DNA of 64,000 nt from Cyanophora paradoxa CCMP329 (Eukaryota; Plantae; Glaucophyta), in contig QPMI01000709.1 in the NCBI GenBank assembly GCA_004431415.1, positions 271,254-335,253 on the forward strand. Reading direction: 5' to 3'. The translations under genes and the position numbers were made by a program. The stretch's first letter is position 1. Each line of letters begins with the position of its first letter. Under the pieces are notes generated by a model, which worked only from the letters and a program-made list of their open reading frames with translations, was not told where the DNA came from and made no database searches. Below, one piece after another: positions 8,581-34,153 of this stretch.

Positions 8581-8581
8581 A

Positions 8582-10295: not shown

Positions 10296-10318
10296 TTTAC
10301 ATTAAAGTAATATATAAT

Positions 10319-11559: not shown

Positions 11560-11568
11560 TCTTTTACT

Positions 11569-12579
11569 CTATATTGCAGAAATTAATTCACCTTGCCATA
11601 CAGTGTAAGCTGTTCCAGCATCACCAAATAAGGCACCTTCATCAAGTTTGATTCGGACTGCATCGTTTCCAGCAAGATTAATAATAACATTGAACCCTAA
11701 ATTTCTGAATCCAGCACCACCTGCGACTCCTGTAAGACCACGCAATGCGACAGAAGCACCATTCACTGTCATAGTAACCCCTGTGTTAGTAGTAGTTGCC
11801 GATGTGGTGGTTCCTATAAATATGAACCGGTAGCTTCCTGGGACAGGTGCTGTAAATACCCCGTTTGCAAATGAAGAAGTATCTGCAAACACATGACCCC
11901 AGACAGTTATGTTTCCTATGGTGGTAACTGAACTGTTAAGTCCGACACAAAAACGTGGGTGATTTGGAGTTGACAGGTAACATGATGTCCCATTAACACT
12001 CAAACCATAATACGAATACTGTGTGCTATTATAAGTGTAGGTTTTTTTAAATGTAGAAGCAATCATTGCCCCACCTCTCTTGATCTCAAAATTGTCACTT
12101 GCACCCACAGTATCAATGGAATTCGTTTTAATTCCACCACTTGCTGTGAGCAACCCAGTAAATCCTCCTGTTGTCCCACTCACAGCCCCAGCATAATTGG
12201 TTGCTGTCACTGTCCCATTAACAGCGAGTCCAGTCCCAATCCATGCCCCGCCACTGTAAACTTGGAAAGCCGCCGAATTCCTATCAGCCGGATTAAAAGC
12301 CGTTTTGGAATCCTGTTGACCTTCATATAGATTTTCTTTGGTGACCAGCCCCGAAGAGATTGCGGGTCGATTCGATACGATTATTTGAGTAGCTTTAACG
12401 ACTCCATCAGCCTTGTCAGCTCGGAGTTCTTTGACTCTGAGTATGCTTTGGTCATTAAAAGAATCGGTTTTCGCTGTCTCAGTCGAAGGGTGGCTCGGAG
12501 ATAAATCATAGACTGTGTGTTGCACATTATGGACAGCACTGGCTGATAAGGAAAACACAGGTGTGAATACAGTCGACAT
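11569..12579 (-). CDS. Fibre protein, paralogue C, with a C-terminal C1q/TNF-like head
   Basis: Shared N-terminal domain; C-terminal F...G.FTAPVPG.Y.F and L..ND.V.I......L.......T.W.G.LI match C1q motifs. Confidence 0.7.
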   Translation of the reverse strand: MSTVFTPVFSLSASAVHNVQHTVYDLSPSHPSTETAKTDSFNDQSILRVKELRADKADGVVKATQIIVSNRPAISSGLVTKENLYEGQQDSKTAFNPADRNSAAFQVYSGGAWIGTGLAVNGTVTATNYAGAVSGTTGGFTGLLTASGGIKTNSIDTVGASDNFEIKRGGAMIASTFKKTYTYNSTQYSYYGLSVNGTSCYLSTPNHPRFCVGLNSSVTTIGNITVWGHVFADTSSFANGVFTAPVPGSYRFIFIGTTTSATTTNTGVTMTVNGASVALRGLTGVAGGAGFRNLGFNVIINLAGNDAVRIKLDEGALFGDAGTAYTVWQGELISAI

Positions 12580-12600
12580 CTTTTGATTGTTCTTTACTTA

Positions 12601-15600: not shown

Positions 15601-15793
15601 CTTTTTCAGGATCCATTTCGTTTATTGAAAGTGCATGCATTCTTGGGTGAGTCTTTGAGGGTTCATCTGCACTATGGTCGATTGAGATTGACCCTCTGGC
15701 TGTCAAGTTATCGAAATTTACATGTTTGTTATCTGCCTTCCCTCTTCCTGATGAAGGAATGGTTTGCAGGTTTGCTGGATAATTGAAACTCAT
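12601..15793 (-). CDS. Large (~1060-aa) fibre/shaft-like protein split by two single-base frameshifts
   Basis: ORFs 14060-15793, 13158-14144 and 12601-13197 join if one C is added to C-runs near 14163 and 13240. Contains EEYLPDG acidic repeats, H.H.W..I..KP repeats and LHAVATSG.Y.DL.N.P repeats. Confidence 0.7.
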
Positions 15794-15842
15794 CCCAATT
15801 TACTCTACTTATAGAGATTTATTAAATTTGAGTTAAGTAAAG

Positions 15843-17384: not shown

Positions 17385-17691
17385 AAATTCAGGACTTCTG
17401 ATGTATGGTGCGCCAGATTATGGCGATTTTTTACAGTAGCTACTGTATTTTCGCATTATTTTACTGTATGTTCCTTACAGTAGAAAGTAGCCGATTAATC
17501 GTTTTTTCGAAATATTTGTACGTAATATATACGTATATATACTCGAAACCTACATCATCGTGTAGATCTTTTCAAGCGCTTTCCAGCGCTATGTCGGCGG
17601 TCGCGATCTGATGATCTGGTGGTGAGATACAAGCGTTTGAAGATGCCGACAGCCCCACAGTCGTAACGTGAAGTGATGCCGACAGTAGTAA

Positions 17692-18346
17692 CGCGAACCG
17701 TCAAGTATATATGCACATATATACATTTTGACCACAAAATAGCGGATTGGTCGGTCGGCGACTCGGAGGTTCGATGTCACACGAAAAGTATGGTGTAGAT
17801 ATGGTGTATATATGTTGCACTCTTTCGGAGGTAATGACTTATTGTTGATATAGATATCAGTTATGACTCATTGTTGAGGTAGATATCCGAAGACGACTCA
17901 TTGTTGATATAGATATCAACAATTAGTCATAACCGGAGTCTTTCATCAATAGGGAAGCCAGAGTTTAGTATCGAATACAACAATCATAGATGTCTGCATC
18001 TGGAAATTCTATCTGCATCATCAAAAAGTCTTCTGCAATCTATCAGCCTCAACAACAATTCATAAGTTCTATCAGCCTCAAAACTCATTAATATTTTCTA
18101 TCAGCCTCAACAATCATGTACATCATCGCTATCGAATACAACTTCCATTGATGTTTTGTATCAAATACAACAATCATTACAAGATTGATGTCCAGAGGGA
18201 GCCCAGGAAATCCAACAGACAACTTTCGACATATATACCGCATATATACACAAAACCTCCGTAATCTCGGTTTGGTCAAACGGAATTTCTGGTAAAAAAG
18301 TGTATATATGTATATATATATATGCATATATACTTGACGGTTCGCG
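17692..18346. repeat. Internal island bounded by inverted repeats, containing short tandem repeats
   Basis: A perfect 24-bp IR (17692-17715 / 18323-18346) extends degenerately inward. Internal repeats are GACT(C/T)ATTGTTGA..TAGATATC x3 and TATCAGCCTCAA x3. Confidence 0.75.
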
Positions 18347-18494
18347 ATTGCGCGCAGTTCACAGTCAAGTTGAGTCAACCGATAAACGCAGGTAACTCTT
18401 CACCAACTGCTCCGTTTTCAATTCTGAAAGCAGATTCGGAATCCTCCCGACAGCGACTATCAGGTTTCGGTGAGATCGGGCACTAACAAAATAA

Positions 18495-18502
18495 AAAATT
18501 GA
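18495..18502 (+). promoter_or_regulatory. AAAATTGA giant-virus-type early promoter motif
   Basis: Exact octamer ~32 nt before the ATG at 18535; related motifs precede four other non-structural ORFs. Confidence 0.55.
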
Positions 18503-18534
18503 CAAGGATTTTCTGGATTCTCTCAACTTCTGCT

Positions 18535-18777
18535 ATGGATCCCATCTACCAAGACCCTGCTATCATCCATGCTGCCCAATCAGACTGGATCCATGATTTC
18601 AAAACTGCTTTCTATTACAATTTCTTCATGTCACAGCCAGAGCATGTGAGACTGTTCTTTGTTTACAATTACCAGCTGGTCTCAAACCTTGAAACTTTCT
18701 TCTTGGAAATTCTTGAAAAAGATAGACAAATGAGGAAAATTCGCCAGAGGTCTAAGAGATTCCGAAAGCGTTGTTAA
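18535..18777 (+). CDS. Small hypothetical viral protein with a basic C-terminal tail
   Basis: ATG at 18535 (MDPIYQ...) follows the AAAATTGA motif; C-terminus RKIRQRSKRFRKR is NLS-like. Confidence 0.5.
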   Translation: MDPIYQDPAIIHAAQSDWIHDFKTAFYYNFFMSQPEHVRLFFVYNYQLVSNLETFFLEILEKDRQMRKIRQRSKRFRKRC

Positions 18778-18778
18778 T

Positions 18779-20177
18779 CTATTTCCTCTGCCCACTTCGT
18801 AAATTGAAGCGAGTTTGGGGTGCAGTATATGTTTCCTTGGTGGTTGAAAAGTCATTATACCATCTCTGACTGTTAACTTCTGATAATTTCTGGGTTCCTG
18901 CTATGGTCAACTTCTTTAATTCTTTCTCTACTCTGCCTTCTTTTGTGCTCTTGCTTCTGTGAGGGGCTCTTTTGGTACTTCACTTGCTTTTTCTATGCCC
19001 TCCTTTCTGATTGCTGAATCAACCCTGGCTTCCTCTTTTGCCTGTTCAAGGGCATCCACTGTGGGGGTTTCATGATACTCAACACCTTTGATGGGCAGCA
19101 GTTCATGAAAAGCGAATCTACCATCAACTATCTCACCACTGGGGCTTCTGATTCTGAACTTGAAGCCCTCTCTTCCCTCTACACTATAAACAATTCGAGA
19201 CCAATTCACTCCCTGCTTTGCAAATGGGTTCTTTTCAACTTTCACTCTCACAAACATTCCAGGTTTCAGAGCATCGAGATACTCAATCGATTTCTTGAAT
19301 CTCTGATCCTCCATACTCACAATCTCTTTGTAGTGGGCTTCTGTGGTTTCTGCTGGTTTTCTCTTGGTTGCAGAGTGAATGGTGTTATTATAATTATACT
19401 CAATGTCACCCAACACATCAAAAAATCGTGCAGTATTATTTGCAATGCAGTAGTTTGTGATCAATCTCTTGATCTGCCTGTTAAAGGCTTCAATCCGACC
19501 TTGGGTTCTGTGATCTGCAACATCACTTAGTTGATGCTCAATGAATTTCGTTCCCAAATAATCTGTGAATAACACATTGGTAAATTCGCTTCCACTATCA
19601 CTCTGAATGCGAACAATAGGTCTGGGACTCTCTGTTCAAGTTGCTTGAATGCTGCAAGTGTAGTAAGAGCACTTTTGTCTCTCATTGGAATAATGAACCC
19701 TGTTCTCAGGGTTGACTCCATTGCACTCATAAATGTATCATAACCATCATTCTGCTTTTTGTATGCAGGAAAGAAGAGCAGATCAATCACATAGGTATCA
19801 AGGGGTTGCCTAATTAGAATCATGGGATCTCTCTTTCGAGATAGGGTGGGTGCATTAATTTGGACAACCTCCTGCTTATCATACCATTCTCTCATCTTCT
19901 TGTAGTTCTCCTCTGGTAGTTCCTGTCTCATTGCAGTAAATCCCTTGTAGCCTGTCCTGGGATCATAGAACTTCTTAGCAATCTTTGACTCTTTTGGTGC
20001 TGTCTCAGCTGGGAGTGTCTCTGGGATTAATTGCTTGACCATCTCTGATCTTTTTAATATTCGACTGCTCTTCTCCTCCACTGGAACTGTGATGGGCAGA
20101 ATATTCCCTCGATCTTCAATTGCTTCTTTTCTAACAATTCTGGGTGGTTGTCTCAATCCTATTTGTGTAGAAGGCAT
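18779..20177 (-). CDS. Retroviral-type (rve, DDE) integrase of the Polinton type, with frameshifts
   Basis: IDLL..., then QSDSGSEF after a one-base shift at ~19625, then GRIEAFNRQIK and YNNTIHS..KRKP. A second shift in an A-run at ~18940 extends the C-terminus to ~18779. Consistent with the 6-bp TSD. Confidence 0.9.
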
Positions 20178-20360
20178 CTTTACCTTATCTCTCATATAAT
20201 AAATGCAAGAGTCTGTGTGGAAGGAGAACACAATTCCCAACTATTTTGCAATCGAGCCCAATGATCCAGGATTAAGATGTATATGGCTGCTGCATTTAAT
20301 TCGCGGTTTATTACTTCTTGGAGAGCGAAACCAAAGAAAAAGAAAGATTGATGAAGTAGA

Positions 20361-23300
20361 TTAGAGCCCAAATGGAATGCTGTGAATTCCATCGTCTAAT
20401 ATCTTCCTTTTGCTATCGAGTTGGTTTAGAGCCACCCTTCTGCTCTCCAAATCATATAGGTTGTGGTCTTGTCTTCGCTTGTTTACTACTGCTACTGTTT
20501 TGGTGATTCCTTCAAACAAGCATCTTTTGAAATCATCAAAGTGAACCTCTTTGGAGGAAGTCCCAGACATTTTTATTTTATCAAAGGTCTCAGTTCTGAA
20601 AGCATAGAGTTTCGATCTCAGACCTACATACTCCACAATCTTTGCATTGGGAAACTCGTTTTTATATTTACCTGGAATCAAGCGATTTCTCCTGTCATAG
20701 AGAGGGTGGGCAGTATCATAATTACTGCAATCCAGGTGTTCAGAAATTCGCTTCATCTCATTATTTAGATCATTTGTATGCAGCAGGAGACAGAAAGAAT
20801 CTGTATCATGGAATAGTAGCTCTGCTGTTTCCCAAGTTCTCCTCACCACATCATAAAAGAACCTGCTATTATGGAGTTTCGCGAAATCCAGCACAAAAGC
20901 ACCAATTGCAACAGGTTTATCTAAGTGAACATGCTTGGAATACATCTCAAAGGCAACAGCATTTTCGTTTAATACATTGGTTGCCTTGATGAGTGGACTT
21001 GCAGCATATTTCTTGCAGAGTTTCTCACTGTTAGCAATCTTAACCACAGAGCGACCCCTGCATGATTCGAGGCATTTACCATAGATTGCATTGTTCATTA
21101 ATTTAAAGAAGTCACTCTCGAATCTGGACATAGATTGGCGCCTCAGTTTCGTATTTAGATCAATATAACTCTTCATAAATGCAGAGGTTGCAAATGAGAG
21201 AACCCTGTGAACCTTCGTGATTATAATACCTTTGCTCACAAGATAGACCAAGAGAGGTTGGGAGATCACATAGTTGTTTTTGGGTGTGAATGTTGCTGTG
21301 AGTTTGGGGTCTTTGCTTATCTTCTCACCTGTGATATCCAGTAGTTTTCGTTGATACTCACCCAGCATTTCGGTGGTGACATGTTCTTTATTAACTACAA
21401 GTGGAAAATCATAATGATCTGTGAGAGTGTGTGGGTATTCCAGGTCTACTTCAATAAAGGCACTTCGTCCTGGGGTCTCTTTAAGTGCCTCTGAGACATC
21501 TTCCCATCGAAAATCTCCAATGGGCAGTTCTTGACTGAGAGCAAAACCATACAGATTATTTGCATCCAAGAGAACTATATGGTCATCTGGGTTTTCCACC
21601 TTTGCATATCGAGTAGGCATTGTAGCAAACCCACCTCGAATTGCCCTCTCAATAAATTCGTATTGCCCTACATCACTGATCTGCTCAATCTTTGCTCTGG
21701 TGTAAATGAGCATTGCATCCCAGGATAATCCAGGAGCCGAAACATAGTGGGCAGGATCCAATCCATATTGGGAAAACGCCAATTCTCGGAATGTCTGGAA
21801 TTTACCCATTAGATCACTTGCATCCACTGCCTGGAAGTCCATGAAGTGCGAAGCATCTATGAATTTCCACATGCCCCATTGCAGGGAGAGGTATTGGTCG
21901 AAATTTTTGCTCAGAATCTCAACACGAAGTTTATCATCTTGCTGTGCAATTTTGCGGAATATTTCGTGTCCACATTCATCCATGTGATCCACCACAATTG
22001 CTACTTTGGTTTGCTTTGAGATTCTCCTGTGGAGGTTGCAGTTTCGGCATGCTTTTCCAATAAAAGCTCCTGATTGATGACAATGGTCTCTCACTGGGAA
22101 ATTCTCATGGGTAAATCGTTCAGCACAGATATAACAGTGTTTAGTGATCTTGTATTGTGCTTTCTGCTCCTCTGTGAGTGGATGCATGGGAATATTGGTG
22201 AATAGAGTGCGAATTACTTGGGGTCTGATCTCTGTGAGAGTGGTAAACAGAGCACCAAGGGGATCTGATCCATCAAAATAATGAGAGATCACCTCATCCC
22301 CCATCACAACTGTTAGAGAAACCGATTTTACCTCTCTCTTACTGCGGTTCTCATCAATTGGAACCGAGTGACTATCCATTTTCACATAGCAGATAGCGGG
22401 AAGCCACACAGTTTTGCGAAGGTGTTGCAGACCAAATGCAATGTGACTTCCAGATTTCGGGCATTTACCTTTGCTCTCCCTCCAATCAATGCAGCGATTC
22501 GCTTCTATATGTACATCCAGCTTCTCCTGAGTTCTGAAACGAGACAGACAGGTCTCACAGTAATAAATGCGACCATCATGGGCTTTATCAAAGGTGGTTT
22601 TCAGAAGTCTACTCAGAGACATGATGGTGATATAATGCCCTCTATCATCCTCTTCGTTTTCGATTAATAAAAGGTTAATCTTGGTCTTTCTCCTGGGGTT
22701 GCTGGATTGGTGGAGAGGATAGAAACACTGTGCAGTATTATCTGCCCATAAATGTTGATACTCAGTTCAGGGTTCTGCTCCTCAAATCGATCAATCACCT
22801 CTGCATCACAGGCAACTGGAAATTGGATGCCCTCGAAATTGAGTTCGTTCAACCATCTTCTATACTGGCTGGGTTCATTGCTCTTGTGTTTATTAATATC
22901 ATTTCGGTGCAGGTAAGCCAAGATTGCATACTTGAAGCAGTCTTGACCATCAATATTCTTCACATTCACAGTTGCTCTCTTTAATCCAATCCACTCAGGT
23001 GTTGAGAAGAAGCAACCACCCACAGGAGCATAGGACATTATTACTACTCTGAGCATCTCAATGCGATCCAGTCTGTAACTGTCAACTTGCATCATCTGCT
23101 CCTGCATGGATTGAAGGGCATTTCGCAGTTCAACATCAATATTTCGTGATCTTGTGATGACAAAGTAATCACTGTAAATGAATTTGGTGATCCACACCCT
23201 TGGATCACTCACTTTGGTGAATTTACAAATGAAGGTCAACCGAGTCTTAATTGCTCTCAGGTCTTGGAGTTTCTGTCTGAGTCTCTGAGGTAGAGTGGGT

Positions 23301-23641
23301 GCAATTCTCTCCAAGAATTCAATCCCATCTTGGATAACCTCCCCTCTTGCTCGATAGGTTAACCAAGAATATGCTTTGTTCATTGCTTCCCCATCCTCAA
23401 TCTCGGGTTCAATTGTTCCCAACCTTAAACCTTCATCCCTGAATTCCTCCATTTTCTCAAAACGATCATAGAGGCGATTTGTAATTTCTGTGAGTTGAGA
23501 TAACCTTGGTCTCCTATCCAAGATTGCTGCCTGGCGATCATATTCGAATTCTGTAATATCACCAGTAACTAAAAGGGTTCCTAAAAGACCGAGTATTTCG
23601 TTTTTCTTCTCTTTGATGATTCTATTGGATTGGCGGGGCAT
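20361..23641 (-). CDS. polB: Protein-primed family B DNA polymerase (pPolB); one frameshift at ~22745
   Basis: Motif A DANNLYG, motif B KLMNNAIYGK, motif C DTDS, and KLY. Also LDPAHY..APGLSWDAML, an endonuclease VII-like VRDHCH..G..C..CN insert, and the N-terminal CF.YAIL / LNF.GI.FP / INLLLI..HY Polinton region. Confidence 0.93.
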
Positions 23642-23697
23642 CTTTTACTTTAAGGGAACATATTATTTTTGGGCATTTTAAACGCATTTCCCATTTT

Positions 23698-23889
23698 TCA
23701 GGTTCTGATAATTCGCACATTCGTGCCTTTGGGGACATATACATTTACTGTGTCGAGTCTGCTTGCATAAACACGCTTCTTTTGATAGGGTCTACCGTTA
23801 ATTGCTTTGATCTTTGCAATATAATCCGCCACCTCTGCAATATCATTCTTTTCGACAAGCTGCCGCCGAATTTCATCGAAATAATCCAT
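23698..23889 (-). CDS. Small basic hypothetical viral protein
   Basis: 63-aa ORF with AAAATTGA on the minus strand at 23938-23945. Confidence 0.5.
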   Translation of the reverse strand: MDYFDEIRRQLVEKNDIAEVADYIAKIKAINGRPYQKKRVYASRLDTVNVYVPKGTNVRIIRT

Positions 23890-24032
23890 TTTCTGTCTTA
23901 GTCAAGTGAAACACGCAACGATCCCTTAAATCGCCAGTCAATTTTTGTCACAACACACCGATTTCCGATACGTTTTGATATCCTTCGATTATTCTTCGGA
24001 AAAGTGATCGACCCACAGGGGGGAGTCTGTGG

Positions 24033-24180
24033 TTAATTGGGTGTGACGGGTGTGACAGGTGTGACACCTATTTTCAAACTTTTTAAACTTTTTAAAAATC
24101 CTCAGACTCCTGAAAACACCTGTCACACCTGTCACACCCGTCACAGTCAATTAAAATACCTGTCACACCTGTCACACAAA
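24033..24180. repeat. Internal copy of the TGTGAC(A/G)GG iteron-like cassette, candidate replication origin
   Basis: Three units, an AT-rich spacer (TATTTTCAAACTTTTTAAA), then inverted units; closely similar to the TIR cassettes; ~60 bp past the helicase stop codon. Confidence 0.75.
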
Positions 24181-24243
24181 CCATTTACAGTAAGGGTTTT
24201 AAAAAATTAGAAATTCACAGTATAAGTATTGATTCCGTTTTAT

Positions 24244-26607
24244 TTACTCATCCCCAACCTCCTCATCACTGTCATCCATCAATCTGCGACCATGCTTCTT
24301 TATGATCCCAAAGTAACCACGGCAAAGTACACCATTCACTCGTTTTCTGTCAGAGTTCACATTAAAGACTTCGCGAAGTCTCTTCATAATGGTGCAATCT
24401 GAGATTTTCTCATCAGATTTGCCCATGTGGTCTCTCTTGAAGTCACTCATGATGGACTCACTTGTAGTGAAATCGCCTTGACTCTTGGTGAGTTCATAAT
24501 TCTCTCGAATCCACTCTCCAATCTTGTCATTCTCATTGAAATACTCCATACCTTGATCAACAATGGACTGGGGAGGTTTGGTGACGAATGTATTGAGAGA
24601 ATGGGTTCTCCACATTTCCAGGAGAATGGACATATGCGCCATTTTATAATCGTCATCATTCTTCATTAGGCGCATTAGAGTGGTGTCTGCTTTCTTCTCA
24701 CCAGGCTGAGGATCGACCTTGAAGACATTTTCGAATCGGTAGTAGATAATTCGCCTTTGGATTGCTGCATCTGGTTTACTGATTCCCAGGTTGTCATTTG
24801 TGGACAAGAACAACTGGAACATGGGAATGAATGTAACAAGATCTTTGAAAAGAGCTCGAACCTTCATCTCATTCCCACCAGTAACCTGTTTGATTTTGTT
24901 CAGTTGAAGCATATCACCATCTTCTGCTTCATTACTGAAAACAATTCGTTTACCAAGAATGCAAGCGAGTTCTGGGGAAGCCTCTGACGAACTCTTCTTG
25001 GGTTTAGTCCAATATGTCATGTCCAGTGACCCATAATACTCACCAAATGTGTCTTTCACCAACTCTTGGAGCAGTGATTTCCCATTTGCTCCAATTCCAG
25101 TCCAGCAAGTGTATCTCTGATTTTCTGTCAAACCACTCAGGGCATAGGCGATTAATCCCAGCATGAATTCGCGGTCTGTATCCGATTCAATAATATCTGC
25201 ATAGATGGATTTAATCTTTGCAACCTTCTCTTGGTCAATTTCTGTGGTGTAATCGTAGCCAACAGTCTTACTCACCATATCATATGGGAGTCCCTGTCGA
25301 AAAGTCATGGAGTTCAAGTCAAATACACCATTTGTGAACCCAATGATGTTGGGAACAGTATCAAGTCTCTCGAAAAAGGTCTTGTCACTGAACAGAACTG
25401 AAAGATCAGACATAAGTGCAGTTCTGTATGTAGTCTGTTTGAGGCTCTTAGCAATTCCCAGCAGAATCTTTGACCTTTCCTCCAAGGAATTGCGGTTCTC
25501 TTCATCACGAAGAGCTCTCTGTGCGAGTTGAACAGAACGTTGAAGATAAACTGGACAGACCTTGCAGCTCAAACAGAGAAAGATTCGCTTCCCAGTTTCA
25601 TCCATCTCCCAAATCCCACATACATCATTGAACTTGAACCAGGTCTTGTTGGAATACTTGTATTTGTCTTGCAGAACAAGATAGGCAACCTGTGCAACAT
25701 CATAATGGGCACCATCAGATCCAGCAGACCGATCAATCAGATTTTCGATATTCGCATCTGTCTCTTCCTTCACACGAATTGTGATAAGTCGCTTCTTGCA
25801 GTTTGCACTGTAACTCGAAACAATGTACTTGTCTTTCTCCTTTCCTTGAATAATATACCAATTGTTCGAGTCATGGCTTCCCTTGCAGCAGGGACAGATC
25901 AGACCTTTGTTCTCAGCAGTGAAATTGTATCCCATCTTGGTCTCATTGATGATTGTGGGCAAGATGAAATCGAATTCTTCCAGTTTAGCAAGAATATGTT
26001 TCTGCAAATTCTCCTCAGCGCACCTTGCATAATAAGAATGTGCACCTTTGGGGAATTCGTAGTTTTCAACAATCCACTTTTGCAACTCAGCAGTGGGTTC
26101 ATTTAACTCACACTCAGATGCCCATGGCTCTCTGATCCATGTTTTGTTGGGACTGGGACAAACATTAATTACCCCAGCAGTCCCAGTGGATGCAATCGTT
26201 TTGCAGTCGATCTTGGGGTTTCCTTTGAATGCACCTGCTTTATCCCAGATCTTAATGGTGTCGAATTCAGCAGGTCGAGCGAAGAATGCATGATATCCTT
26301 TTTTGGTTTTAGCAAGAGGATTAACACCACCGAAATCATCAGGGAATTGCTCCTCGAATTTGGCGAAATCCTCCTCTTGGTCGAAGTCAATTACCAGGAT
26401 ATTACGAGCGAGAATGCCCCAAGCAGTATATTTACCGGATTTCAGGGCTTCATCGAATTTATCCCAAGACCAGGTTCCGTCTTTATGAGCGAAAAGTGGC
26501 TTTTTGGTATCAGGATCAACAGGAATAACGATATTCTCAGACAGGACATCGTCTTCACGAAGCCATTCAACAAGGCGTTTCAGGGATTTCTTGGCGGCAG
26601 CGTTCAT
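24244..26607 (-). CDS. Primase-polymerase (Prim-Pol) + Zn finger + D5-like SF3 helicase fusion
   Basis: VIDFD and T.KGYH.FF primase motifs, CPCC..SH...C, D5_N-like IGFTNGVFDL, Walker A GIGANGKS, Walker B FSNE, motif C LSTN and arginine finger RRI. Confidence 0.9.
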   Translation of the reverse strand: MNAAAKKSLKRLVEWLREDDVLSENIVIPVDPDTKKPLFAHKDGTWSWDKFDEALKSGKYTAWGILARNILVIDFDQEEDFAKFEEQFPDDFGGVNPLAKTKKGYHAFFARPAEFDTIKIWDKAGAFKGNPKIDCKTIASTGTAGVINVCPSPNKTWIREPWASECELNEPTAELQKWIVENYEFPKGAHSYYARCAEENLQKHILAKLEEFDFILPTIINETKMGYNFTAENKGLICPCCKGSHDSNNWYIIQGKEKDKYIVSSYSANCKKRLITIRVKEETDANIENLIDRSAGSDGAHYDVAQVAYLVLQDKYKYSNKTWFKFNDVCGIWEMDETGKRIFLCLSCKVCPVYLQRSVQLAQRALRDEENRNSLEERSKILLGIAKSLKQTTYRTALMSDLSVLFSDKTFFERLDTVPNIIGFTNGVFDLNSMTFRQGLPYDMVSKTVGYDYTTEIDQEKVAKIKSIYADIIESDTDREFMLGLIAYALSGLTENQRYTCWTGIGANGKSLLQELVKDTFGEYYGSLDMTYWTKPKKSSSEASPELACILGKRIVFSNEAEDGDMLQLNKIKQVTGGNEMKVRALFKDLVTFIPMFQLFLSTNDNLGISKPDAAIQRRIIYYRFENVFKVDPQPGEKKADTTLMRLMKNDDDYKMAHMSILLEMWRTHSLNTFVTKPPQSIVDQGMEYFNENDKIGEWIRENYELTKSQGDFTTSESIMSDFKRDHMGKSDEKISDCTIMKRLREVFNVNSDRKRVNGVLCRGYFGIIKKHGRRLMDDSDEEVGDE

Positions 26608-26801
26608 TTCGAAAATCGGGGGCTTCTTATACTTAATGGAGAAATTAATTTCTCCGGATCCTTGTCATTTTTTGGCGCCTAACCTTTAAATACCTTTGGG
26701 TTTTCCGATTGGCGCTCGATACATGGTAATGATCCATCGAAAAGGCGATTGATCATGGTAACAAAAAGGATTCAGCGGATATCTGGGACTTTGGGGGCGG
26801 T

Positions 26802-27029
26802 TCAGTATTTCCTGGGACGACCTACTGGGCGTTTTACTGGATTATTTGGATCCATCTCAGCAGCTTTCCTGCGATAATATCGTTCCAGTGCCTTTTTACG
26901 ATATAATTCTCGAAACTCCTCATCTTGATAGCGTTTCTGGAAGTACAAGCGGTCATACAACCTTTTCTTTTCATTGGGATCCATTTCGCTCATTGCAAGT
27001 TCGAATTCGACCACAGATTCAGTTTCCAT
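26802..27029 (-). CDS. Small DNA-binding protein with an AT-hook
   Basis: Basic/Tyr-rich helix and C-terminal KRPVGRPRKY. Confidence 0.65.
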   Translation of the reverse strand: METESVVEFELAMSEMDPNEKKRLYDRLYFQKRYQDEEFRELYRKKALERYYRRKAAEMDPNNPVKRPVGRPRKY

Positions 27030-27230
27030 TTGATATGTTCCTTATATTGGGACGAGAAAATAATTTGTCCGGGTTCACCAATCAAACACACCTTACCCTT
27101 AAATCCCTTGTCATTTTTTGCAGATCGAGACCAGTTCCTGTCTACGCTTTTTTATTGCGGCTTCTGTTGCATATTCAGCGGATTTCCTGTCCAGGATAGC
27201 ATAGATCTCAGAGAGACTGAGCATTCGATA

Positions 27231-27464
27231 TTAATTGCCGAGATTTAATTTTGGATCTGTGAAAGATACAGAGCGTCGCCTCACAGTCTCTGTTTTAATA
27301 TGCTCCTCGAAATCAACCGAGTCTGTGGATAATCGCCTACCGCCAGATCCATGACTTTCAGTGTCAGAGAATTCGATTTCGACTTTTGTATCACAGCAGC
27401 CACTGTGACAATTGCTCACAATGTGGAGATTAAACATCTCTATGATTTTTCGCAAGAAATCCAT
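27231..27464 (-). CDS. Small Cys-cluster hypothetical protein
   Basis: 77 aa with an S.C.S.CC motif; co-oriented within the viral gene block. Confidence 0.5.
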   Translation of the reverse strand: MDFLRKIIEMFNLHIVSNCHSGCCDTKVEIEFSDTESHGSGGRRLSTDSVDFEEHIKTETVRRRSVSFTDPKLNLGN

Positions 27465-27491
27465 GATGCTCTCTCTCTTAATGCGAGATAA

Positions 27492-28226
27492 TTAAAGCCA
27501 TACTCGTCGTTTATATACTGTGGGGGCAACACCTTTATCGACCTCTGATTTGGTAGCACCAGGTTCAATGGTGCCCTTTTGGGTTTTGGTCTTCATCTCA
27601 TCAACTGCCTGCTCATCAATTTGAGTCTCTTTCTTACCAATGAATTGCTTATCTGGGAGACCAGTGATTCCCATTCTATACACCTCCTTTCGCAGCATCT
27701 CCTTTAATTTCGCTCTCTCTTTCTTCTCAGAGACATACTGTTCAAGAGCACTGGATTTCGCTTCCAGATCTTTAAGTTTCGCAGTCATTTCGTCCCATTG
27801 GGCTTTGGGAATTCGGTGGATATTCTGTGTAGGTGCGACCTTGTAGGTGACCTCACCAGCCATGGACTGAATTACCTTGTCTGATTCTTTGGAGACACCT
27901 TCACCTTTGCGAGCAAGTGAGAGATCTTGCAGACCAAGTCCTTTATCATCAGCAGCACCAATAATTCGACGAGCACCTTCACCAACTGCCTTCATCTTTG
28001 TGGCTTCGGGCGAAATATTCAATTGATCACTGGTGGATGCCTGGGGCGCTTTATCATCGGGAGATTCTTCATAAGCAGCATTGAGGGGATCTTCTTGTTG
28101 CTGTGATGCTTTAACTTCATTGACAACATTGAATTTCATGGGCTCTGTGTTAATAGAACCGGTTCCAGAGGATGCAGAATATGACATAGCACCAGCAGGA
28201 ACACCAACTTTGCGTTTGGAAGGCAT
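27492..28226 (-). CDS. Hypothetical hydrophilic coiled-coil protein (possible core protein)
   Basis: 244-aa ORF just downstream of the packaging ATPase; Lys/Glu-rich with basic termini. Confidence 0.55.
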   Translation of the reverse strand: MPSKRKVGVPAGAMSYSASSGTGSINTEPMKFNVVNEVKASQQQEDPLNAAYEESPDDKAPQASTSDQLNISPEATKMKAVGEGARRIIGAADDKGLGLQDLSLARKGEGVSKESDKVIQSMAGEVTYKVAPTQNIHRIPKAQWDEMTAKLKDLEAKSSALEQYVSEKKERAKLKEMLRKEVYRMGITGLPDKQFIGKKETQIDEQAVDEMKTKTQKGTIEPGATKSEVDKGVAPTVYKRRVWL

Positions 28227-28277
28227 TGTATATTTATTAGAAGCAGAGATTATTTTACAAACCTCTCTTATATCGCA

Positions 28278-29036
28278 TCAGTTTATTCGAATGAACACCA
28301 CTCTTGACCTCTTTGGGGCTTCCTCTTTCTGTGGAGGTGGTAGTTCGTCCTCTTTCTTTTTGGGCTTCCTGTGGAACCGAGGAAATGGGAAATCTTTGAC
28401 CAGATCCGCTTTATCAACATAATAGTTCACCGAATAATTCGCAGAAGACCACACAATATATTGGTAGGAGTGTACATACTCCTCAAACATCTTATAGAAA
28501 TCGTCCTTGTTTCGCATGATATTGTACTCCTCTTCAATGGCTTCGAGTTCTTTGCGATTTGCAGCACTCAGGAACACAGCATAATCCGAATTTACTCGAA
28601 TTGTTGAAGAAACCTTACGCAATTTCTGAGTTATGCAGAAAATTGTAATCGAGGAATGGCGGCCGCGCGAATACAGAGAGCCAATAATTTTATCACGAGT
28701 AAGGTCTACAATCTCATTATCTATTAAATCATCAAGGACAATACACAATTGGTTAACTGGCTCGCCCTTTTCTATTTTCTCTTGCCTTTCATCCAGTAAT
28801 TTGGAAATGTAAGCAGCATCCCATTTTCCCAGTTGCAGTGTTGCGACATCATCCCAAAAATGATTGAAACTCGTCCCACTTATAACAAGAACAACATCTA
28901 ATTTTTTCGCATCATGCAGCTGTTTCAACCAATATTTCACACATTCTGACTTGCCTGTTGCAGACTTTCCTATGAAAAGAGCACGAAATGGTGGGTTAAT
29001 CATTTCACCTGCATTAAACTCCTCTAAGTCGTTCAT
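28278..29036 (-). CDS. A32-like (FtsK/HerA) genome-packaging ATPase
   Basis: Walker A GKSATGKS, Walker B IVLDD, RGRH..I......Q and IR.NSDY. Confidence 0.92.
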   Translation of the reverse strand: MNDLEEFNAGEMINPPFRALFIGKSATGKSECVKYWLKQLHDAKKLDVVLVISGTSFNHFWDDVATLQLGKWDAAYISKLLDERQEKIEKGEPVNQLCIVLDDLIDNEIVDLTRDKIIGSLYSRGRHSSITIFCITQKLRKVSSTIRVNSDYAVFLSAANRKELEAIEEEYNIMRNKDDFYKMFEEYVHSYQYIVWSSANYSVNYYVDKADLVKDFPFPRFHRKPKKKEDELPPPQKEEAPKRSRVVFIRIN

Positions 29037-29098
29037 GGCTTTGTAGATCTTTCTTATTAAAGATAGATAAAAATAACGAAACGTTACTGATCATGGTT

Positions 29099-30472
29099 TT
29101 AGAGATTGATTCGCCTTAAACCATCTTTGTCAACAATAATGAAACTGTGCATGAGAGCACGAACATTAACTGTGATTGTCTGGTCAGAAGGCATGTATAG
29201 AGTAAGGAAAGAAGAGGAGGAGTTCGTGAGATCAACATAGCCAGACTGGGCAATGTTGCGAATCGCTTTCTCTCCATCAACACAGAATGGTAGACCACTG
29301 AGGACATATTTGTCTGCAACCTTGTCCATATTCGAGCACTTGAAGGCATCCGCAATTAATTCGGCACCTTTGAGGAGAGGAATTGGCTCAGTAGCATAGA
29401 GACGTTGACCATTAATTTCAACAGTGAAAGTAATGTCTTTTGAGTTAGCATGCGTTTTTAGGACACTGTGGGAACCATTGAAACCATCAATACCTGCGGC
29501 ATCACGAACTGAAACAAGAAGACCATAGACAAGACCAGAGATCTGTGACAGGTTAATACGATTTGGTTGAGCATTGCCTTTTGCAGCAAAATTGACACTG
29601 TCAACAAAACCAATATCCAGAGCAGGAATAGCCATACCAGTGGTCTTCACCTTCTCAATGACAGTAGCAAACAGTTCATCAGAAACATTAATAGCATGCA
29701 TGTAAAGACGAGGAGAAGTGACTTTAATTTCGGGGGTTGTTGTTGCACCAATTCCAAAAGTGGTGATTTGTTGACCAACATGGGCAAGAGTAGCATTAGC
29801 AGTAGCACCAAGTCCATCATCCTCTGTCTTATCAGCAGCTGTTCCACCAACAACAGGAAGAGCACGACCACCATAAGAAGTCTCAACATAACCCTTTCCA
29901 GCATCCTTGAACCAGACAGTTACCACCATTTCTCCTGAGAGAGCACCAAGAGGTAGGTAGTGGTTTAGCCATGGGACTGGGATTTCAGTGAAAAATGACC
30001 CACCAAGTCGGTTGGTTCCATGGGCAGGGATACCATGAACCATTCCCATTGAACGCTTCTTCTTGGCGAGTTGATCCTCACTGTAATAGATAAGAGGGAA
30101 ATGAGCAAGGAAATCAGAAGGCACATGGAAGGTGTAAGATCCATAGGTAATTTCAAGTCGAGAGACAAGAGCACCAACTGGGCGAACGTATCCATTGCGA
30201 ACAAGGTCGGTATCACCAGCAAAAGTGACAGCTGGAAGGTCAAACGCAAGTTCGAGTTTTCCACAGAAATTGTAGCGAGGGAGCTTGAAAGAAATGCGAT
30301 TTCCAGCATTATTCTCGAAAGTGTTGCTTGGGTTCACAACAACAAGAACTGGCTTCGACTTGGATTCAAGACCAAGCATGAGAGAGTTGTCCAAGAAGAA
30401 CGCCTTGGCTTCTTCCGGGGTTGTTAGAGCTTCTTTCAGAGAAAGACGTTGGAGGGTCGAAGTAATATCCAT
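29099..30472 (-). CDS. Double-jelly-roll major capsid protein (PLV-type)
   Basis: ~457 aa, beta-rich, with G..ISFKLPR....G.L.L.F.LP N-terminal pattern; lies between the ATPase and a penton. Likely start is MDITS. Confidence 0.75.
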   Translation of the reverse strand: MDITSTLQRLSLKEALTTPEEAKAFFLDNSLMLGLESKSKPVLVVVNPSNTFENNAGNRISFKLPRYNFCGKLELAFDLPAVTFAGDTDLVRNGYVRPVGALVSRLEITYGSYTFHVPSDFLAHFPLIYYSEDQLAKKKRSMGMVHGIPAHGTNRLGGSFFTEIPVPWLNHYLPLGALSGEMVVTVWFKDAGKGYVETSYGGRALPVVGGTAADKTEDDGLGATANATLAHVGQQITTFGIGATTTPEIKVTSPRLYMHAINVSDELFATVIEKVKTTGMAIPALDIGFVDSVNFAAKGNAQPNRINLSQISGLVYGLLVSVRDAAGIDGFNGSHSVLKTHANSKDITFTVEINGQRLYATEPIPLLKGAELIADAFKCSNMDKVADKYVLSGLPFCVDGEKAIRNIAQSGYVDLTNSSSSFLTLYMPSDQTITVNVRALMHSFIIVDKDGLRRINL

Positions 30473-30526
30473 GATTATCTCTTTTATTATACTGCAACAT
30501 AAAAAATTCACCAATGATCCTTGATT

Positions 30527-31537
30527 TTACGCAAAATTCGCAATAACCGGATAAGATGGATGTGTTTCCGCCATTCTCCTCTTGAAGTATTCGTACACAG
30601 GATCACCAGCAGGTTCATCACCATATCGAATTTCGAAGGTGAGGTGGACAGGTTGACCCTCGAAATCAATTGGTTCATTAACTGCATTCACAATATCAAC
30701 CGAAAATGTGGAAAGTCCCAGATTCTTGTTATAGTATTTATAAATCGGATGGGCTTCTGTCGAATTATAAACGACATGCTCACCATAATCTTTATCTGGA
30801 ACAACGATTTTGTGGAAATATCCAGTGAGGAGACCATCACCACATTGAACCAGATCACCCAACTCCTTTACTCTCACAAACAGAACACTATCCCTGGTCT
30901 TTTCAGGTTCAAATGAAGATATGATACCATGCACCATCGACCCAGTAAAGATACCATCAGTCAGAGTATTATAAACTTGTGATTGGATTGGGGTGTTACC
31001 ATATCTCCCAGGATCAAGACCAAGCAGTCGAGCAGAACTCAAAAACCTCTGAATCTGCGCCTGGGTTGGGTTTATTGCAGTTGAGAAAGCCAGGTAAAAC
31101 GGTATGGTGGAATGGAATATTACTCGTTTCAGTGTATCATCCCATTTACAGCGAATTGCTACTGGTGGCTCTCTCAATGCAAGTTTGGAGTTAATTACAT
31201 TCACCAGTTGTTGGTGGTTTTGAATGGGTGTGCTGCGACTTATCACAATGTGCTTCCATTGCTCATAATCGGCAGCAGGTCGATCAGTTGGAATACCAGT
31301 GCTTCCTGCACCAGAATAATATTCAGACCAATAAAGGTAGATTGCATTATCTATTGTCACATCTCCTACTTTGGTTTCACCACTCACCATGGGAATGCTG
31401 TTATAGAATTCTGCTGAAACCAGTCTTACTGCTCTCACAAATTCATAGGTGCTTGGGAGGCGAGCAATAAAACTCGAAGTTGGTCCATCTCCCGAAATTG
31501 TATTGAAAGAGCTCACTTCGATGTAATCCACAGGCAT
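30527..31537 (-). CDS. Minor capsid protein (penton) 1
   Basis: I.V.S.......S.F...LP......V..V.L.SAE..NS at the N-terminus and IDFEG.....TFEI at the C-terminus. Confidence 0.75.
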   Translation of the reverse strand: MPVDYIEVSSFNTISGDGPTSSFIARLPSTYEFVRAVRLVSAEFYNSIPMVSGETKVGDVTIDNAIYLYWSEYYSGAGSTGIPTDRPAADYEQWKHIVISRSTPIQNHQQLVNVINSKLALREPPVAIRCKWDDTLKRVIFHSTIPFYLAFSTAINPTQAQIQRFLSSARLLGLDPGRYGNTPIQSQVYNTLTDGIFTGSMVHGIISSFEPEKTRDSVLFVRVKELGDLVQCGDGLLTGYFHKIVVPDKDYGEHVVYNSTEAHPIYKYYNKNLGLSTFSVDIVNAVNEPIDFEGQPVHLTFEIRYGDEPAGDPVYEYFKRRMAETHPSYPVIANFA

Positions 31538-31565
31538 CTTCTTTTATCTATAAACATATATTAAA

Positions 31566-32496
31566 ATGATTCGGCTGGTCAATATAGATAGCAGAGACCG
31601 ATCAGATGGACAAATAGAAAACTCCTACAAAGTTGCACTCACAACCCCAGTGACCAAACCAAGAGAATGTCGAGTTTTGTATGCAGAAATCCCCAACAGC
31701 ATCTATAACTCCATTGGAACAGATCACCTTCTTGTCAGATTCTACTACCAAGGCATCTCTGAAACCAAGCAGGTCTTCCTTCTCCAAGTGGTTATATTAA
31801 TCAAGGGCATTTCGGGGTCACCAGTCCATATAATTATGGTCTGAATTTCACATTTACTGGGAGCAACAATCTCACATATGCATTCAAGGTCTACTACAAT
31901 CCTACCTCCTACAAATTAGAGTTTTACAGTAATGTTCAATTCGAGATGGTAGCATCTACACAGAGATTGGGTAAACTTCTTGGGGTGAGTTCTGTTGACT
32001 GGGTCGCTTCATTAGAGCAGAACTACGATTTCCCAGAGTCTGCAAGGTCTTTATATGCCCCCGAGAATTTCCTCTATTTTGCAGGAATCCCAATCACCCC
32101 AAACCATCCCCAATGGGGAATCACATTCACAGGATATGAATTCGAGGCATCTCGCTTAAACTACAAGTTAGAAGCATCCAAGATGACAGACATGAATGCA
32201 GAACAGTATTTATACATGCACATTAAAGAACTCTCCCCATTTGCTACAAACCACAATATTGTCCAAGATCACAACCACAGAATCAAGGGGCGATTCTCAG
32301 ATTGCAATTGAGTAAAGATATTGGACAGTATGTTTATCACAGTGGAGAGCACAGTGAATACATAAAAATAACCGATCGAAACCTTGTGATTAGAGAGTTA
32401 ACAGTTGAGTTTCGAGATTATTATGGTGATCTTGTTGATATGAATGGAATAGACAACTCATTCCAGTTGGAGTTCTTGGCTATTGGTAATGATTAA
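31566..32496 (+). CDS. Minor capsid protein (penton) 2, with two frameshifts
   Basis: N-terminal NIDSRDR...AEIPNS.YN and C-terminal L.V.FRD..G..VDMNG.D.SF.LEF; the frames join near 31775 and at the G-run near 32290. Confidence 0.75.
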
Positions 32497-32746
32497 ACCG
32501 ATCCTGATAGAAAAACTCCCCATCTGTCTCGAAAATATTAAGAAGGGGACTCTTAGCATCCTCTGTATACCATCGGCGAATTGTATTATCCCATTTAGCA
32601 CCATTCTTTTTCAAGAATCTACAAAGAGTTGATCTCCTTGTAATTCGCAATCCCATCTCTTGAAAGATCTCATAATGATCTTGCATTCTATTCACAATCA
32701 AGATGTAAGTCCCATGGAAATTGTGATATTGCTGGTTAATCGGCAT
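32480..32746 (-). CDS. Hypothetical protein with a DUF5710-like K..GA.WD...R.WY motif
   Basis: LKKNGAKWDNTIRRWY. The start is placed at MPINQ, downstream of an AAAAATGAC motif. Confidence 0.55.
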   Translation of the reverse strand: MPINQQYHNFHGTYILIVNRMQDHYEIFQEMGLRITRRSTLCRFLKKNGAKWDNTIRRWYTEDAKSPLLNIFETDGEFFYQDRFNHYQ

Positions 32747-32794
32747 GTTTCCTTTACAGCATGATGGGAAATCGTTTGTCATTTTTTTGGCGAA

Positions 32795-34147
32795 ACGAGA
32801 GTATCTCATGAGATAGATGAGAGAATAACAGGTGTGTTTTCAGGGTTGGAGAAATCGGAGAAACATAGAGTATTGCGATTTCCGAGTTAGTTGACACTGA
32901 GAAATTCAGAATTTCAGATGGTCTTACTGAAAATGGTCAGATAATCGGGTGTGACACCTATTTAATTGACTGTGACGCCTGTGACAGGTGTGACACCTAT
33001 TTTCAAACTTTTTAAAATTCTCACAAATTACAGACTTCTGAAAACACCTGTCACACCTGTCACACCCGTCACACCCAATTAACAAAAGACTCTATTTCTT
33101 ACTGAGATATTCAAGAATTTATTGTTGTCTTACTGAAAACAGTCTATGTGACAGGTGTGACACCTTCAAAATCCACCCAACAATAGTCGATTTCATGAAT
33201 ACCTTTCTGTCTTACTGAAAATGGTAAGGAGACCAGGTGTGACAGGTAGTTTAATTGAGTGTGACAGGTGTGACAGGTGTGACACCTATTTTCAAACTTT
33301 CTAAATTTTTCAAAAATGACAGACTTCTGAAAACACCTGTCACACCTGTCACACCTGTCACAGACATTCTACCCTCTTACTGACTTTCTCAAAAACAAAT
33401 ATATCTATTACTGAATATCATTTGAATACTACCTGTCACACTTGAATTCAATTATTCTGTTTTATAGAACATATGCAATCTAATCGATTGTTCAATTGGA
33501 GACCATGCAACTCTGTGACACTTTTTCGATCTAAAATATAAATCCGCAATCTCATCGATTGTTTAATTGGACATAATGCAGTTCCGATATATTCCAATAG
33601 AAAATCCCGCAATCTAATCGATTGTTTAATGGGAGATAATGCAACTCTGTGACACTTTTTCGGTGCAAAAATGTACATCAGCAATCTCATCGATTGTTCA
33701 ATTGGACACAATGCAACTCTGTGACACTTTTTGCGTTTTTCGATACAGAATGGGCGGTGGTCTACTTCAATACATGAGAGATATATCGAGTTTATGCGAA
33801 TTTATGCAATTTAATCGCAATTATATCGATCTTTAAGCAGTTTAATGTTAATCTATCGCAGATTTGTATGTAAACAACAAAGTACATAATCAATCGATAT
33901 AAGATCAATTGAATCTATCGAAGTTTAATCGAAAATATGCATTTTGGTAAACGCGTTTTCATTTTTAATACAAAGTTTGCATTATTTTATACAAAGTTTG
34001 CATAAAAAGTTTAAGAAATTAATCGAAAAATATGTATTTTAGTATTAAATTAACACATATTGAAAAACGAATTTAAATCCAGAGTGAATCGAGATCGCGA
34101 AGCGATCGAGATGAACGAGGGATTTAAATTCGTTTTTCAATATGTGT
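32795..34147 (-). repeat. Right terminal inverted repeat (1353 bp)
   Basis: Reverse complement of 7315-8677. Confidence 0.95.
34053..34147 (+). other. Right terminal 95-nt hairpin (G.A-paired strand)
   Basis: Arms 34053-34080 / 34120-34147, linkers AGAGTGAATCGA / GAGATGAACGAG, and cap GATCGC-GAA-GCGATC. Confidence 0.95.
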
Positions 34148-34153
34148 GAAATG
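34148..34153 (+). other. Right target-site duplication GAAATG
   Basis: Matches 7309-7314. Confidence 0.95.

What the first reader, a model, noticed from the sequence alone, without database searches (positions are those of the whole stretch)
34053..34147. Strand-asymmetric terminal hairpins zipped by G.A pairs and capped by GCGAAGC: candidate self-priming telomere
Seen: each end is a 95-nt fold-back made of a 28-bp perfect stem, a 12x12-nt region and GATCGC-GAA-GCGATC. Pairing AGAGTGAATCGA against GAGATGAACGAG gives A.G, G.A, A.G, G-C, T-A, G.A, A.G, A-T, T-A, C-G, G.A, A.G. All 7 mismatches are G/A, six of them in three tandem 5'-GA/5'-GA steps. The complementary strand has only T.C mismatches and a TTC loop. 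At both ends the G.A version is on the strand that terminates 3', and its last base pairs with the inner arm, leaving the genome ahead as template. Known: tandem sheared G.A pairs and the d(GCGAAGC) mini-hairpin are exceptionally stable; parvoviruses self-prime from 3' hairpins; poxviruses have imperfect hairpin ends; Polinton models assume protein priming. Inference: a selected structure that folds on only one strand, for self-priming, end protection or hairpin resolution, while limiting cruciform formation in the provirus.
Basis: partly seen in the sequence, partly recalled or inferred. Interest (0 to 1): 0.92.

Follow-up and report, generated by a model that had tools for sequence, protein, structure and literature searches.

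The report
One-strand G·A hairpin virus telomeres
A small DNA virus inserted in a microbial eukaryote's genome ends in fold-back hairpins whose mismatches are all G-with-A on the strand that ends 3', sister copies keep that design with different letters, and the hairpins likely let the virus start copying itself from its own DNA end.

Summary
Observation confirmed base for base. The 95-nt fold-back is the tip of both 1.36-kb inverted repeats of a 26.8-kb integrated Polinton-like virus with a 6-bp target duplication. Short-read contigs of two runs hold it unchanged, so it is no assembly artefact. Seven of seven mismatches are G/A (about 7e-6 by chance). Two sister end types in the same organism rebuild the tip from three GCGNAGC mini-hairpin units between GGA triplets, mostly differing at the free N, again on the 3'-ending strand as far as contig layout shows. 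The inverted (flop) form is absent or minor. Its polymerase lacks proofreading and has an altered terminal-protein priming motif; a primase-helicase is also encoded. Best reading: a selected single-isomer 3' snap-back telomere that self-primes (0.45). Main rival: a structured 3' overhang patched by protein priming, as in Streptomyces (0.30). Terminal palindromes and the hairpin-priming idea are already in a 2026 preprint; the G·A strand code, covariation and single orientation were not found in print. Both strands still fold through the 28-bp stem; only the tip is asymmetric. No function was tested.

The parts
34053..34147 (+). Right terminal fold-back: 28-bp stem, three tandem GA steps plus one A.G, 6-bp stem, GAA loop (GCGAAGC at 34097-34103); purine version on the 3'-ending strand
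   Evidence: unchanged in contigs of X1 and X4
7315..7409 (-). Left terminal fold-back, identical on the minus (3'-ending) strand
7309..7314 (.). Left copy of the 6-bp target-site duplication GAAATG
34148..34153 (.). Right copy of the target-site duplication
7315..8677 (.). Left terminal inverted repeat (1363 bp) with 60-115-bp subrepeats and 12 TGTGACAGG iterons
32795..34147 (.). Right terminal inverted repeat (1353 bp), identical but for two indels (1 and 9 nt); 11 iterons
18928..20195 (-). rve (DDE) integrase; the reading frame changes between the first and second catalytic motif in this assembly
   Evidence: PFV integrase E 8e-6; PHROG transposase
20361..22622 (-). pPolB, C-terminal piece: endonuclease-VII-like zinc domain, dead exonuclease, polymerase motifs A, B, C present
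22664..23641 (-). pPolB, N-terminal piece: terminal-protein fold and vOTU; in another frame from the C-terminal piece in this assembly
24024..24155 (.). Internal copy of the TIR iteron palindrome (5 iterons) between helicase and polymerase genes
24244..26607 (-). PrimPol (below Pfam cut-off, E 2e-4) plus D5-type SF3 helicase
28278..29036 (-). A32-type packaging ATPase
29099..30472 (-). Double jelly-roll major capsid protein of a small, isolated clade (2 relatives found)
30527..31537 (-). Probable minor capsid protein (position and appearance only; not confirmed)
   Evidence: no family hit
7315..34147 (.). Whole integrated Polinton-like virus, 26,833 bp, 40.6% GC in 70% GC host DNA

Best explanation
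The fold-back is the terminus of an integrated Polinton-like virus and is likely a selected hairpin telomere that only the 3'-ending strand would zip to the tip, so that the free genome's 3' end likely snaps back and primes its own copying. Shown: the sequence, its position at both ends, the all-G/A mismatches, two sister end types with the same design, and little or no inverted form among assembled ends. Inferred: (1) sheared G.A pairs and the GNA cap turn the 39-nt tip into a stable, nuclease-resistant near-duplex on the purine strand, while the T/C strand keeps open bubbles; (2) when a strand or end is unwound by the element's helicase, the 3' end folds flush and the polymerase extends it; (3) a nick at the 3' foot of the hairpin gives the 3'-OH that the integrase joins to host DNA, and host repair copies the hairpin into the other strand, which yields exactly the integrated arrangement seen, always in one orientation.
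For: Flush 3' pairing at both ends. Sister types B and C have 29-nt tips of three GCGNAGC units between GGA triplets; 3 of their 4 differences fall on the free N (about 0.01 by a hand count, units not independent). B's purine version follows AT-rich interior DNA in one contig in both X1 and X4. GCGNAGC units are exceptionally stable and only GNA loops of 64 form them (PMC13037366); GNA/GNA zippers fold on the purine strand while the pyrimidine strand shows no clear melt (PMC11014236). The same core caps bacterial hairpins: 17 of 34 metagenome hits continue in a stem, 11 are attC-like with GNA on the strand that is recombined folded. The terminal-protein motif Ser-Gly of 66 of 69 relatives is replaced, with a 4-residue deletion, here and in the closest relative. 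In Halocafeteria such palindromes go mostly with elements lacking pPolB.
Against: No experiment. ViennaRNA separates the strands by only 1.4 kcal/mol (the model does not capture mini-hairpin stability), and PMC5449611 notes one case where the complement of a GGA mini-hairpin is as stable. The terminal-protein fold is intact in the model, the deletion shortens helix 2 rather than the loop, and a serine remains in the loop one place on; vOTU Cys and His are kept. Ordinary rolling-hairpin or cruciform resolution makes flip and flop ends, but depth bookkeeping leaves room for at most about 205 of 3100 (X4) and 457 of 3200 (X1) inverted junctions, so amplification needs an asymmetric cut that I cannot assign; no HUH nickase was found among 23 ORFs. 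No relative outside this organism was found with an end.
Confidence: 0.45

Rival explanations
1. Streptomyces-like end patching. The primase-helicase copies the genome from inside (iteron arrays as origins), leaving 3' overhangs; the overhang folds into a nuclease-proof G.A hairpin that is recognised, and the terminal-protein domain of pPolB primes the missing 5' strand. The hairpin protects and signals; it is not the primer.
For: Explains one orientation and one-strand design without extra steps, since only the 3' strand is ever single at the end. Streptomyces 3' overhangs carry GNA loops with sheared G:A and are patched by protein priming even though the terminal palindrome can pair (PMC4513846; PMC5449611). 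Terminal-protein fold, a loop serine and vOTU are kept. The 5' end starts ACACA, a short repeat like those used in slide-back priming (recalled). Loss of exonuclease together with an SF3 helicase is the mavirus pattern.
Against: Ser-Gly motif lost and 4 residues deleted. A perfect 28-bp stem buries the template end. Palindromic ends are reported mainly in elements with no pPolB at all.
Confidence: 0.3
2. Recognition signal only: the folded purine strand is a binding site for the PrimPol primase (like ssiA for RepB'), the integrase or the packaging machinery, or the free genome has covalently closed poxvirus-like ends of which only the G.A isomer is integrated.
For: Mini-hairpins occur at phage priming sites, ssiA and N4 promoters (PMC13037366). 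Mismatches in vaccinia hairpins serve packaging, not DNA synthesis (PMC8956199 abstract). A phage locus has the same architecture beside direct repeats (L185:2979-3044). An endonuclease-VII-like domain sits in pPolB.
Against: A primase site at the very tip does not solve end replication (inference). Closed ends resolved from concatemers come as flip and flop, and a design that favours one isomer would handicap half the ends.
Confidence: 0.2
3. By-product: an accidental fold-back of the end during repair, later drifting, or an assembly artefact.
For: The Halocafeteria preprint names accidental annealing as an alternative.
Against: Unchanged in short-read contigs; 7 of 7 mismatches G/A with no G.T or A.C; three end types with the same design; a fourth with another stem sequence.
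Confidence: 0.05

Closest known systems
Terminal palindromes of Halocafeteria seosinensis endogenous virophages (subtypes 1, 2, 5, 6) and PLV subtype 4 (bioRxiv 10.64898/2026.07.28.741278)
   Same: Palindrome inside the TIR, next to the target duplication, in an rve-integrating protist virus; hairpin priming proposed.
   Different: 52-nt example there, 95 nt here; the text has no word on mismatches, sheared pairs or strand asymmetry (figure and supplements not seen); those elements mostly lack pPolB, this one has an exonuclease-dead pPolB plus PrimPol-helicase.
Streptomyces typical telomeres (Tap/Tpg end patching)
   Same: Hairpins with GNA loops closed by sheared G:A on the 3'-ending strand of a linear replicon; terminal palindrome able to pair; single orientation.
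   Different: Several short palindromes rather than one 46-pair rod; other proteins (Tap, Tpg); bacterial chromosome, not an integrating virus.
Parvovirus 3' hairpin telomeres (rolling-hairpin replication; recalled, paper not held)
   Same: 3' end pairs flush and could prime; the left end of autonomous parvoviruses occurs in one orientation (recalled).
   Different: No HUH nickase found here; double jelly-roll capsid and own polymerase; integrates with a 6-bp duplication.
Poxvirus hairpin telomeres (PMC8956199)
   Same: Imperfect hairpin at the end of a TIR of a virus of the same kingdom, with an A32 ATPase.
   Different: Those are closed, AT-rich and come as flip and flop; here the tip is GC/purine-rich and the flop form is absent or minor among integrated ends.
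Integron attC bottom-strand hairpins (PMC5027507) and d(GCGNAGC) mini-hairpins (PMC13037366)
   Same: Strand choice encoded by purine-rich unpaired features and a GAA cap; 11 attC-like loci carry the same 27-nt core type as sisters B and C.
   Different: attC is a tyrosine-recombinase substrate inside bacterial DNA, not a genome end; no shared proteins (tblastn empty), so convergence is the simplest reading.

Membership tests
Polinton-like virus (endogenous) | Double jelly-roll major capsid protein | tested here: met
   ESM Atlas score 0.98 to Capsid_N clusters, though recognition value under the tool's mark; no Pfam or PHROG hit
Polinton-like virus (endogenous) | A32-type packaging ATPase | tested here: met
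   Pox_A32 E 6e-10
Polinton-like virus (endogenous) | Long TIRs, 6-bp target duplication and rve integrase | tested here: met
   integrase frame is broken in this assembly
Polinton-like virus (endogenous) | Minor capsid protein | tested here: inconclusive
   candidate 30527-31537 has no family hit; atlas look-up did not complete
Polinton in the strict sense | pPolB with terminal protein, vOTU and active exonuclease | tested here: not met
   TP fold and vOTU present, exonuclease motifs lost with about 90 residues deleted
Polinton in the strict sense | Maturation protease; 5'-AG...CT-3' termini (recalled) | tested here: not met
   no protease family among 23 ORFs; termini are AC...GT
Halocafeteria-type terminal palindrome | Palindrome within the TIR adjacent to the target duplication | tested here: met
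Halocafeteria-type terminal palindrome | Association with non-pPolB replication genes | tested here: inconclusive
   both PrimPol-SF3 helicase and an altered pPolB are present
Parvovirus rolling-hairpin telomere | Flush 3' fold-back | tested here: met
Parvovirus rolling-hairpin telomere | HUH replication nickase | tested here: not met
   none among 23 ORFs in Pfam or 9 in PHROGs; several ORFs remain unknown
Poxvirus closed hairpin telomere | Flip and flop isomers in similar amounts | tested here: not met
   integrated ends only, by contig layout and depth
Poxvirus closed hairpin telomere | Covalently closed ends of the free genome | not testable with these tools
   only contigs were served, no raw or virion reads
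Streptomyces typical telomere | GNA loops and sheared G:A on the 3' strand | tested here: met
   sequence pattern only (against 36, 95); geometry not measured
Streptomyces typical telomere | Terminal protein linked to 5' ends after end patching | tested here: inconclusive
   PRD1-type TP fold kept, linking motif altered; linkage not testable here

The most novel reading that the evidence does not exclude
A lineage of Polinton-like viruses has left protein priming for a single-isomer, self-priming hairpin telomere whose strand choice is written in sheared G.A pairs and GNA zippers, the same structural module that marks the working strand of bacterial attC sites; the integrase opens it at its foot, so only one orientation is ever integrated.
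Probability: 0.35. Interest if true: 0.85.

Novelty: new variant of a known kind. Interest (0 to 1): 0.64.

Why it matters
How Polinton-like viruses copy their ends is an open question; no end has been assayed in the papers I read. This element gives a short, synthesisable end with natural variants (A, B, C) and two opposed predictions (DNA priming against protein priming), so the question becomes directly testable. It is also a natural case of non-Watson-Crick DNA pairing under selection at a viral terminus, and it suggests that palindrome screens allowing few mismatches and short gaps will see only the outer stem or miss such ends.

Tried and rejected
No whole genome is held for the window, so sister ends come only from short loose-end strings of contigs. 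Capsid relatives: none in viral contigs or metagenome contigs; 2 proteins in all. 18 pPolB loci: none has a terminal G.A hairpin; only 1 of 18 (L138) shows both ends, with a TIR and no fold-back; the rest say nothing. 74 viral loci with three GCGNAGC units: 1 has the full rod (L185, a phage), none encodes a relative of the element's proteins. Integrase piece found no relative at E 1e-10. Rfam: nothing at the right end. My first reading that the terminal-protein loop is shortened was corrected by the control model: loops are 4 residues in both, helix 2 is shorter. A review on unusual DNA motifs, a parvovirus review and a mavirus record were not held, so the Y-GA-R context rule (5 of 6 GA steps here fit it), single-orientation parvovirus ends, slide-back priming and Polinton AG/CT termini are recalled only. 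One break in run X4's interior contig at 34081 is unexplained and could be a rare inverted end, a lone palindrome or an error.

Full report
Observation. 7315-7409 is the exact reverse complement, so the purine version is on the 3'-ending strand at both ends and the last base pairs flush. Folding energies are -34.3 and -32.9 kcal/mol for the purine and pyrimidine strands, 0 of 200 shuffles as good for each. So both strands can form the outer rod; only the inner 39 nt are asymmetric. Seven G/A of seven has a chance of about 7e-6, and 1661 of 2,000,000 shuffles of the 24 letters gave only WC or G.A pairs; four other fold-backs inside the element have mixed mismatches.

What it belongs to. The hairpins are the tips of 1363/1353-bp inverted repeats around a 26,833-bp element of 40.6% GC in 70% GC eukaryotic DNA, flanked directly by GAAATG. 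It encodes an A32 ATPase, a PrimPol plus D5 helicase, a patatin and an AdoMet decarboxylase, a double jelly-roll capsid protein with only 2 relatives found, an rve integrase and a pPolB. Integrase and pPolB each change frame once in this assembly; I cannot tell error from decay. It is an endogenous Polinton-like virus, not a Polinton in the strict sense. The host is a GC-rich eukaryote with short introns (N-myristoyltransferase and HEATR1 fragments); the closest capsid comes from a EukProt entry (P0001).

Independent sequence evidence. 20 of 21 listed runs of one organism hold the stretch; I laid 4 and then 2 of these on the tip. All are contigs, and one may be the window's source. A 94-nt contig identical to the hairpin is listed in X1 and X4. 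21 (X1) and 16 (X4) laid contigs run over the ends of the stretch and several distinct flanks are printed, so the family has many insertions. Loose ends show sister end types with a like outer stem. Type B (X1, X4) has a 29-nt tip: T, GGA, three GCGNAGC units with N = G, T, T, then GGA, G. Type C (X1, X4, X13, X17; read from overlapping loose ends, unit number from X17 alone) is A, GGA, three units with N = A, A, A, GGA, G. By inspection both fold with a GNA loop, 4 pairs, GNA against GNA, 2 pairs, GGA against GGA; the same core in locus L222 gives that pattern. Three of the four B/C differences fall on the free N, which makes up 5 of 29 positions (about 0.01, counted by hand; tandem units are not independent). 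A fourth type has a stem differing at 5 of the 25 letters shown (X4, X13). Type A uses GA/GA steps, B and C use GNA/GNA steps: different letters, same chemistry.

Orientation. For B one contig runs from AT-rich DNA through the stem into the purine tip and stops at the end of the second arm in both runs (179+35+57 and 66+35+57 nt), which fits two ends of one element branching into two flanks; a nested insertion in the other orientation is less likely but not excluded. For A and C the interior path carries depth 3217 and then 3200 into stem+AG in X1. Bookkeeping of the depth table leaves room for 0-205 of about 3100 (X4) and 0-457 of about 3200 (X1) inverted junctions, depending on an unlisted depth that I had to assume. 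The tool warns that depth is no copy number and contigs drop rare forms, so this excludes a half-and-half mixture among assembled, mostly integrated ends, not rare flop ends, and says nothing about free genomes.

Physical basis, from papers. GCGAAGC melts at 76.5 C, resists 3' exonuclease, and of 64 GCNNNGC loops only GNA forms the structure; current models do not account for it (PMC13037366, passages and section 4.2). GGA/GGA and adenine zippers are intercalated bases between sheared G.A pairs, tolerate any middle base, and the pyrimidine strand shows no clear melt (PMC11014236, passages). Against: one complement of a GGA mini-hairpin is reported as equally stable (PMC5449611, passage). Five of six mismatch GA steps here are in Y-GA-R context, recalled as favouring sheared geometry.

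The module elsewhere. A 27-letter pattern for the B/C core found 34 metagenome loci; 17 of 34 continue with at least 9 of 12 WC pairs. Eleven look like attC sites (9 by pattern, 2 by eye) with the GNA strand as bottom strand by spacer layout (layout recalled) and cassette direction; that is the strand recombined as a folded single strand, purine-rich and often GAA-capped (PMC5027507, passages). Four lie just after IS21 istB (4 of 5 such loci tested). One phage locus has the whole rod with a 15-bp AT stem (L185). None encodes a relative of the element's proteins. The pattern fixed most letters, so identity of cores is not surprising; the covarying outer stems are the evidence.

Replication enzymes. 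The exonuclease is dead: motif I is present in 95 and the motif III region in 118 of 120 relatives but in neither the window nor its closest relative P0003, with about 90 residues deleted. This pairing of exonuclease loss with an SF3 helicase is described for mavirus (10.1101/2024.03.18.585575, passages). That paper places the linking Ser or Tyr between helix 2 and strand 4 of the terminal-protein domain, near Gly or Pro. Of 69 relatives with this region, 68 have 17 residues with Gly or Pro and 66 have Ser/Thr-Gly/Asn; the window and P0003 have 13, reading Asp-Ser-Tyr with no Gly. AlphaFold keeps the fold (mean pLDDT 80.5; pPolB N-terminal matches). A control model shows that the loop is 4 residues in both and that helix 2 lost a turn; a serine remains one place on. 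vOTU Cys and His are kept. Protein priming is therefore doubtful but not excluded.

Mechanism. Any model must explain a flush 3' fold-back, a tip built for one strand, one orientation in integrated copies and a duplication directly outside the palindrome. Lead model (0.45): the 3' end snaps back and primes; a nick at the 3' foot gives the integrase its 3'-OH and host repair writes the complement, which produces one orientation without a terminal protein. Its weak point is amplification, which needs an asymmetric cut by an unidentified nuclease (integrase or the endonuclease-VII-like domain are candidates). Rival (0.30): internal primase-driven replication with protein-primed patching of a folded 3' overhang, as in Streptomyces, whose overhangs carry GNA loops with sheared G:A (PMC4513846 and PMC5449611, passages). 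Rival (0.20): recognition or packaging signal, or closed ends with selection of one isomer (PMC8956199, abstract and introduction). Accident (0.05). All steps beyond sequence are inferred.

Novelty. Terminal palindromes next to target duplications, and hairpin priming as a model, are reported for Halocafeteria virophages and PLVs (10.64898/2026.07.28.741278; section 7 whole, other passages; figure and supplements not seen); its text has no 'mismatch' or 'sheared'. PMC12220804 has no 'hairpin' or 'palindrom' and PMC11296320 mentions hairpins only for poxviruses; passages only. Searches listed no paper on G.A-zipped or strand-asymmetric PLV ends; subscription journals are mostly not searched. 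Earlier AI notes of this scan describe plain terminal palindromes in other Polintons and protist viruses and GNA tips on giant-virus repeats; these are leads, unchecked. Verdict: a real, selected structure; new variant of a known kind; interest 0.64.

Noticed in passing
L219, L225, L229, L230, L231, L234, L237, L238, L242, L248, L251: attC-like sites whose terminal structure is a GGA + three GCGNAGC + GGA zipper on the bottom strand; usually counted as unpaired, it may be a stacked sheared-G.A rod.
   Followed up: partly
L222:2450-2502, L236, L240, L244 (similar DNA in L223, L233, L246): The same zipper caps a 12-13-bp stem just downstream of istB in GC-rich IS21-family elements; role unexplained.
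   Followed up: partly
L185:2979-3044: Phage non-coding region with the full rod (15-bp AT stem, G.A, GNA zipper) beside direct repeats; candidate replication origin or priming signal.
   Followed up: partly
window 7201-7314 and 34148-35287: The virus interrupts an open reading frame of a host poly-glutamine protein; the two flanks read through in one frame.
   Followed up: partly
window 8101-8510, 24024-24155, 32961-33366: Inverted arrays of a 9-bp iteron form 115-120-bp palindromes in both TIRs and once inside, upstream of the polymerase gene; candidate origins or promoters.
   Followed up: no
window 34117-34147 (records 7, 8, 14): Several flank contigs differ by one letter in the last 31 nt, possibly the terminal base, so the integration junction may vary by a nucleotide.
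   Followed up: no
window 720-3354 and about 46684-50658: Host 199-bp, 88% GC tandem array (13 copies) and a 2.23-kb direct duplication.
   Followed up: no
L144, L182, L203, L164: Long tandem arrays of GCGNAGC units (up to about 18) in viral contigs, some near contig ends.
   Followed up: no
window 15843-17384 and 8582-8983: Accessory genes: patatin fused to a discoidin domain, and an AdoMet decarboxylase whose last codons lie in the TIR.
   Followed up: no
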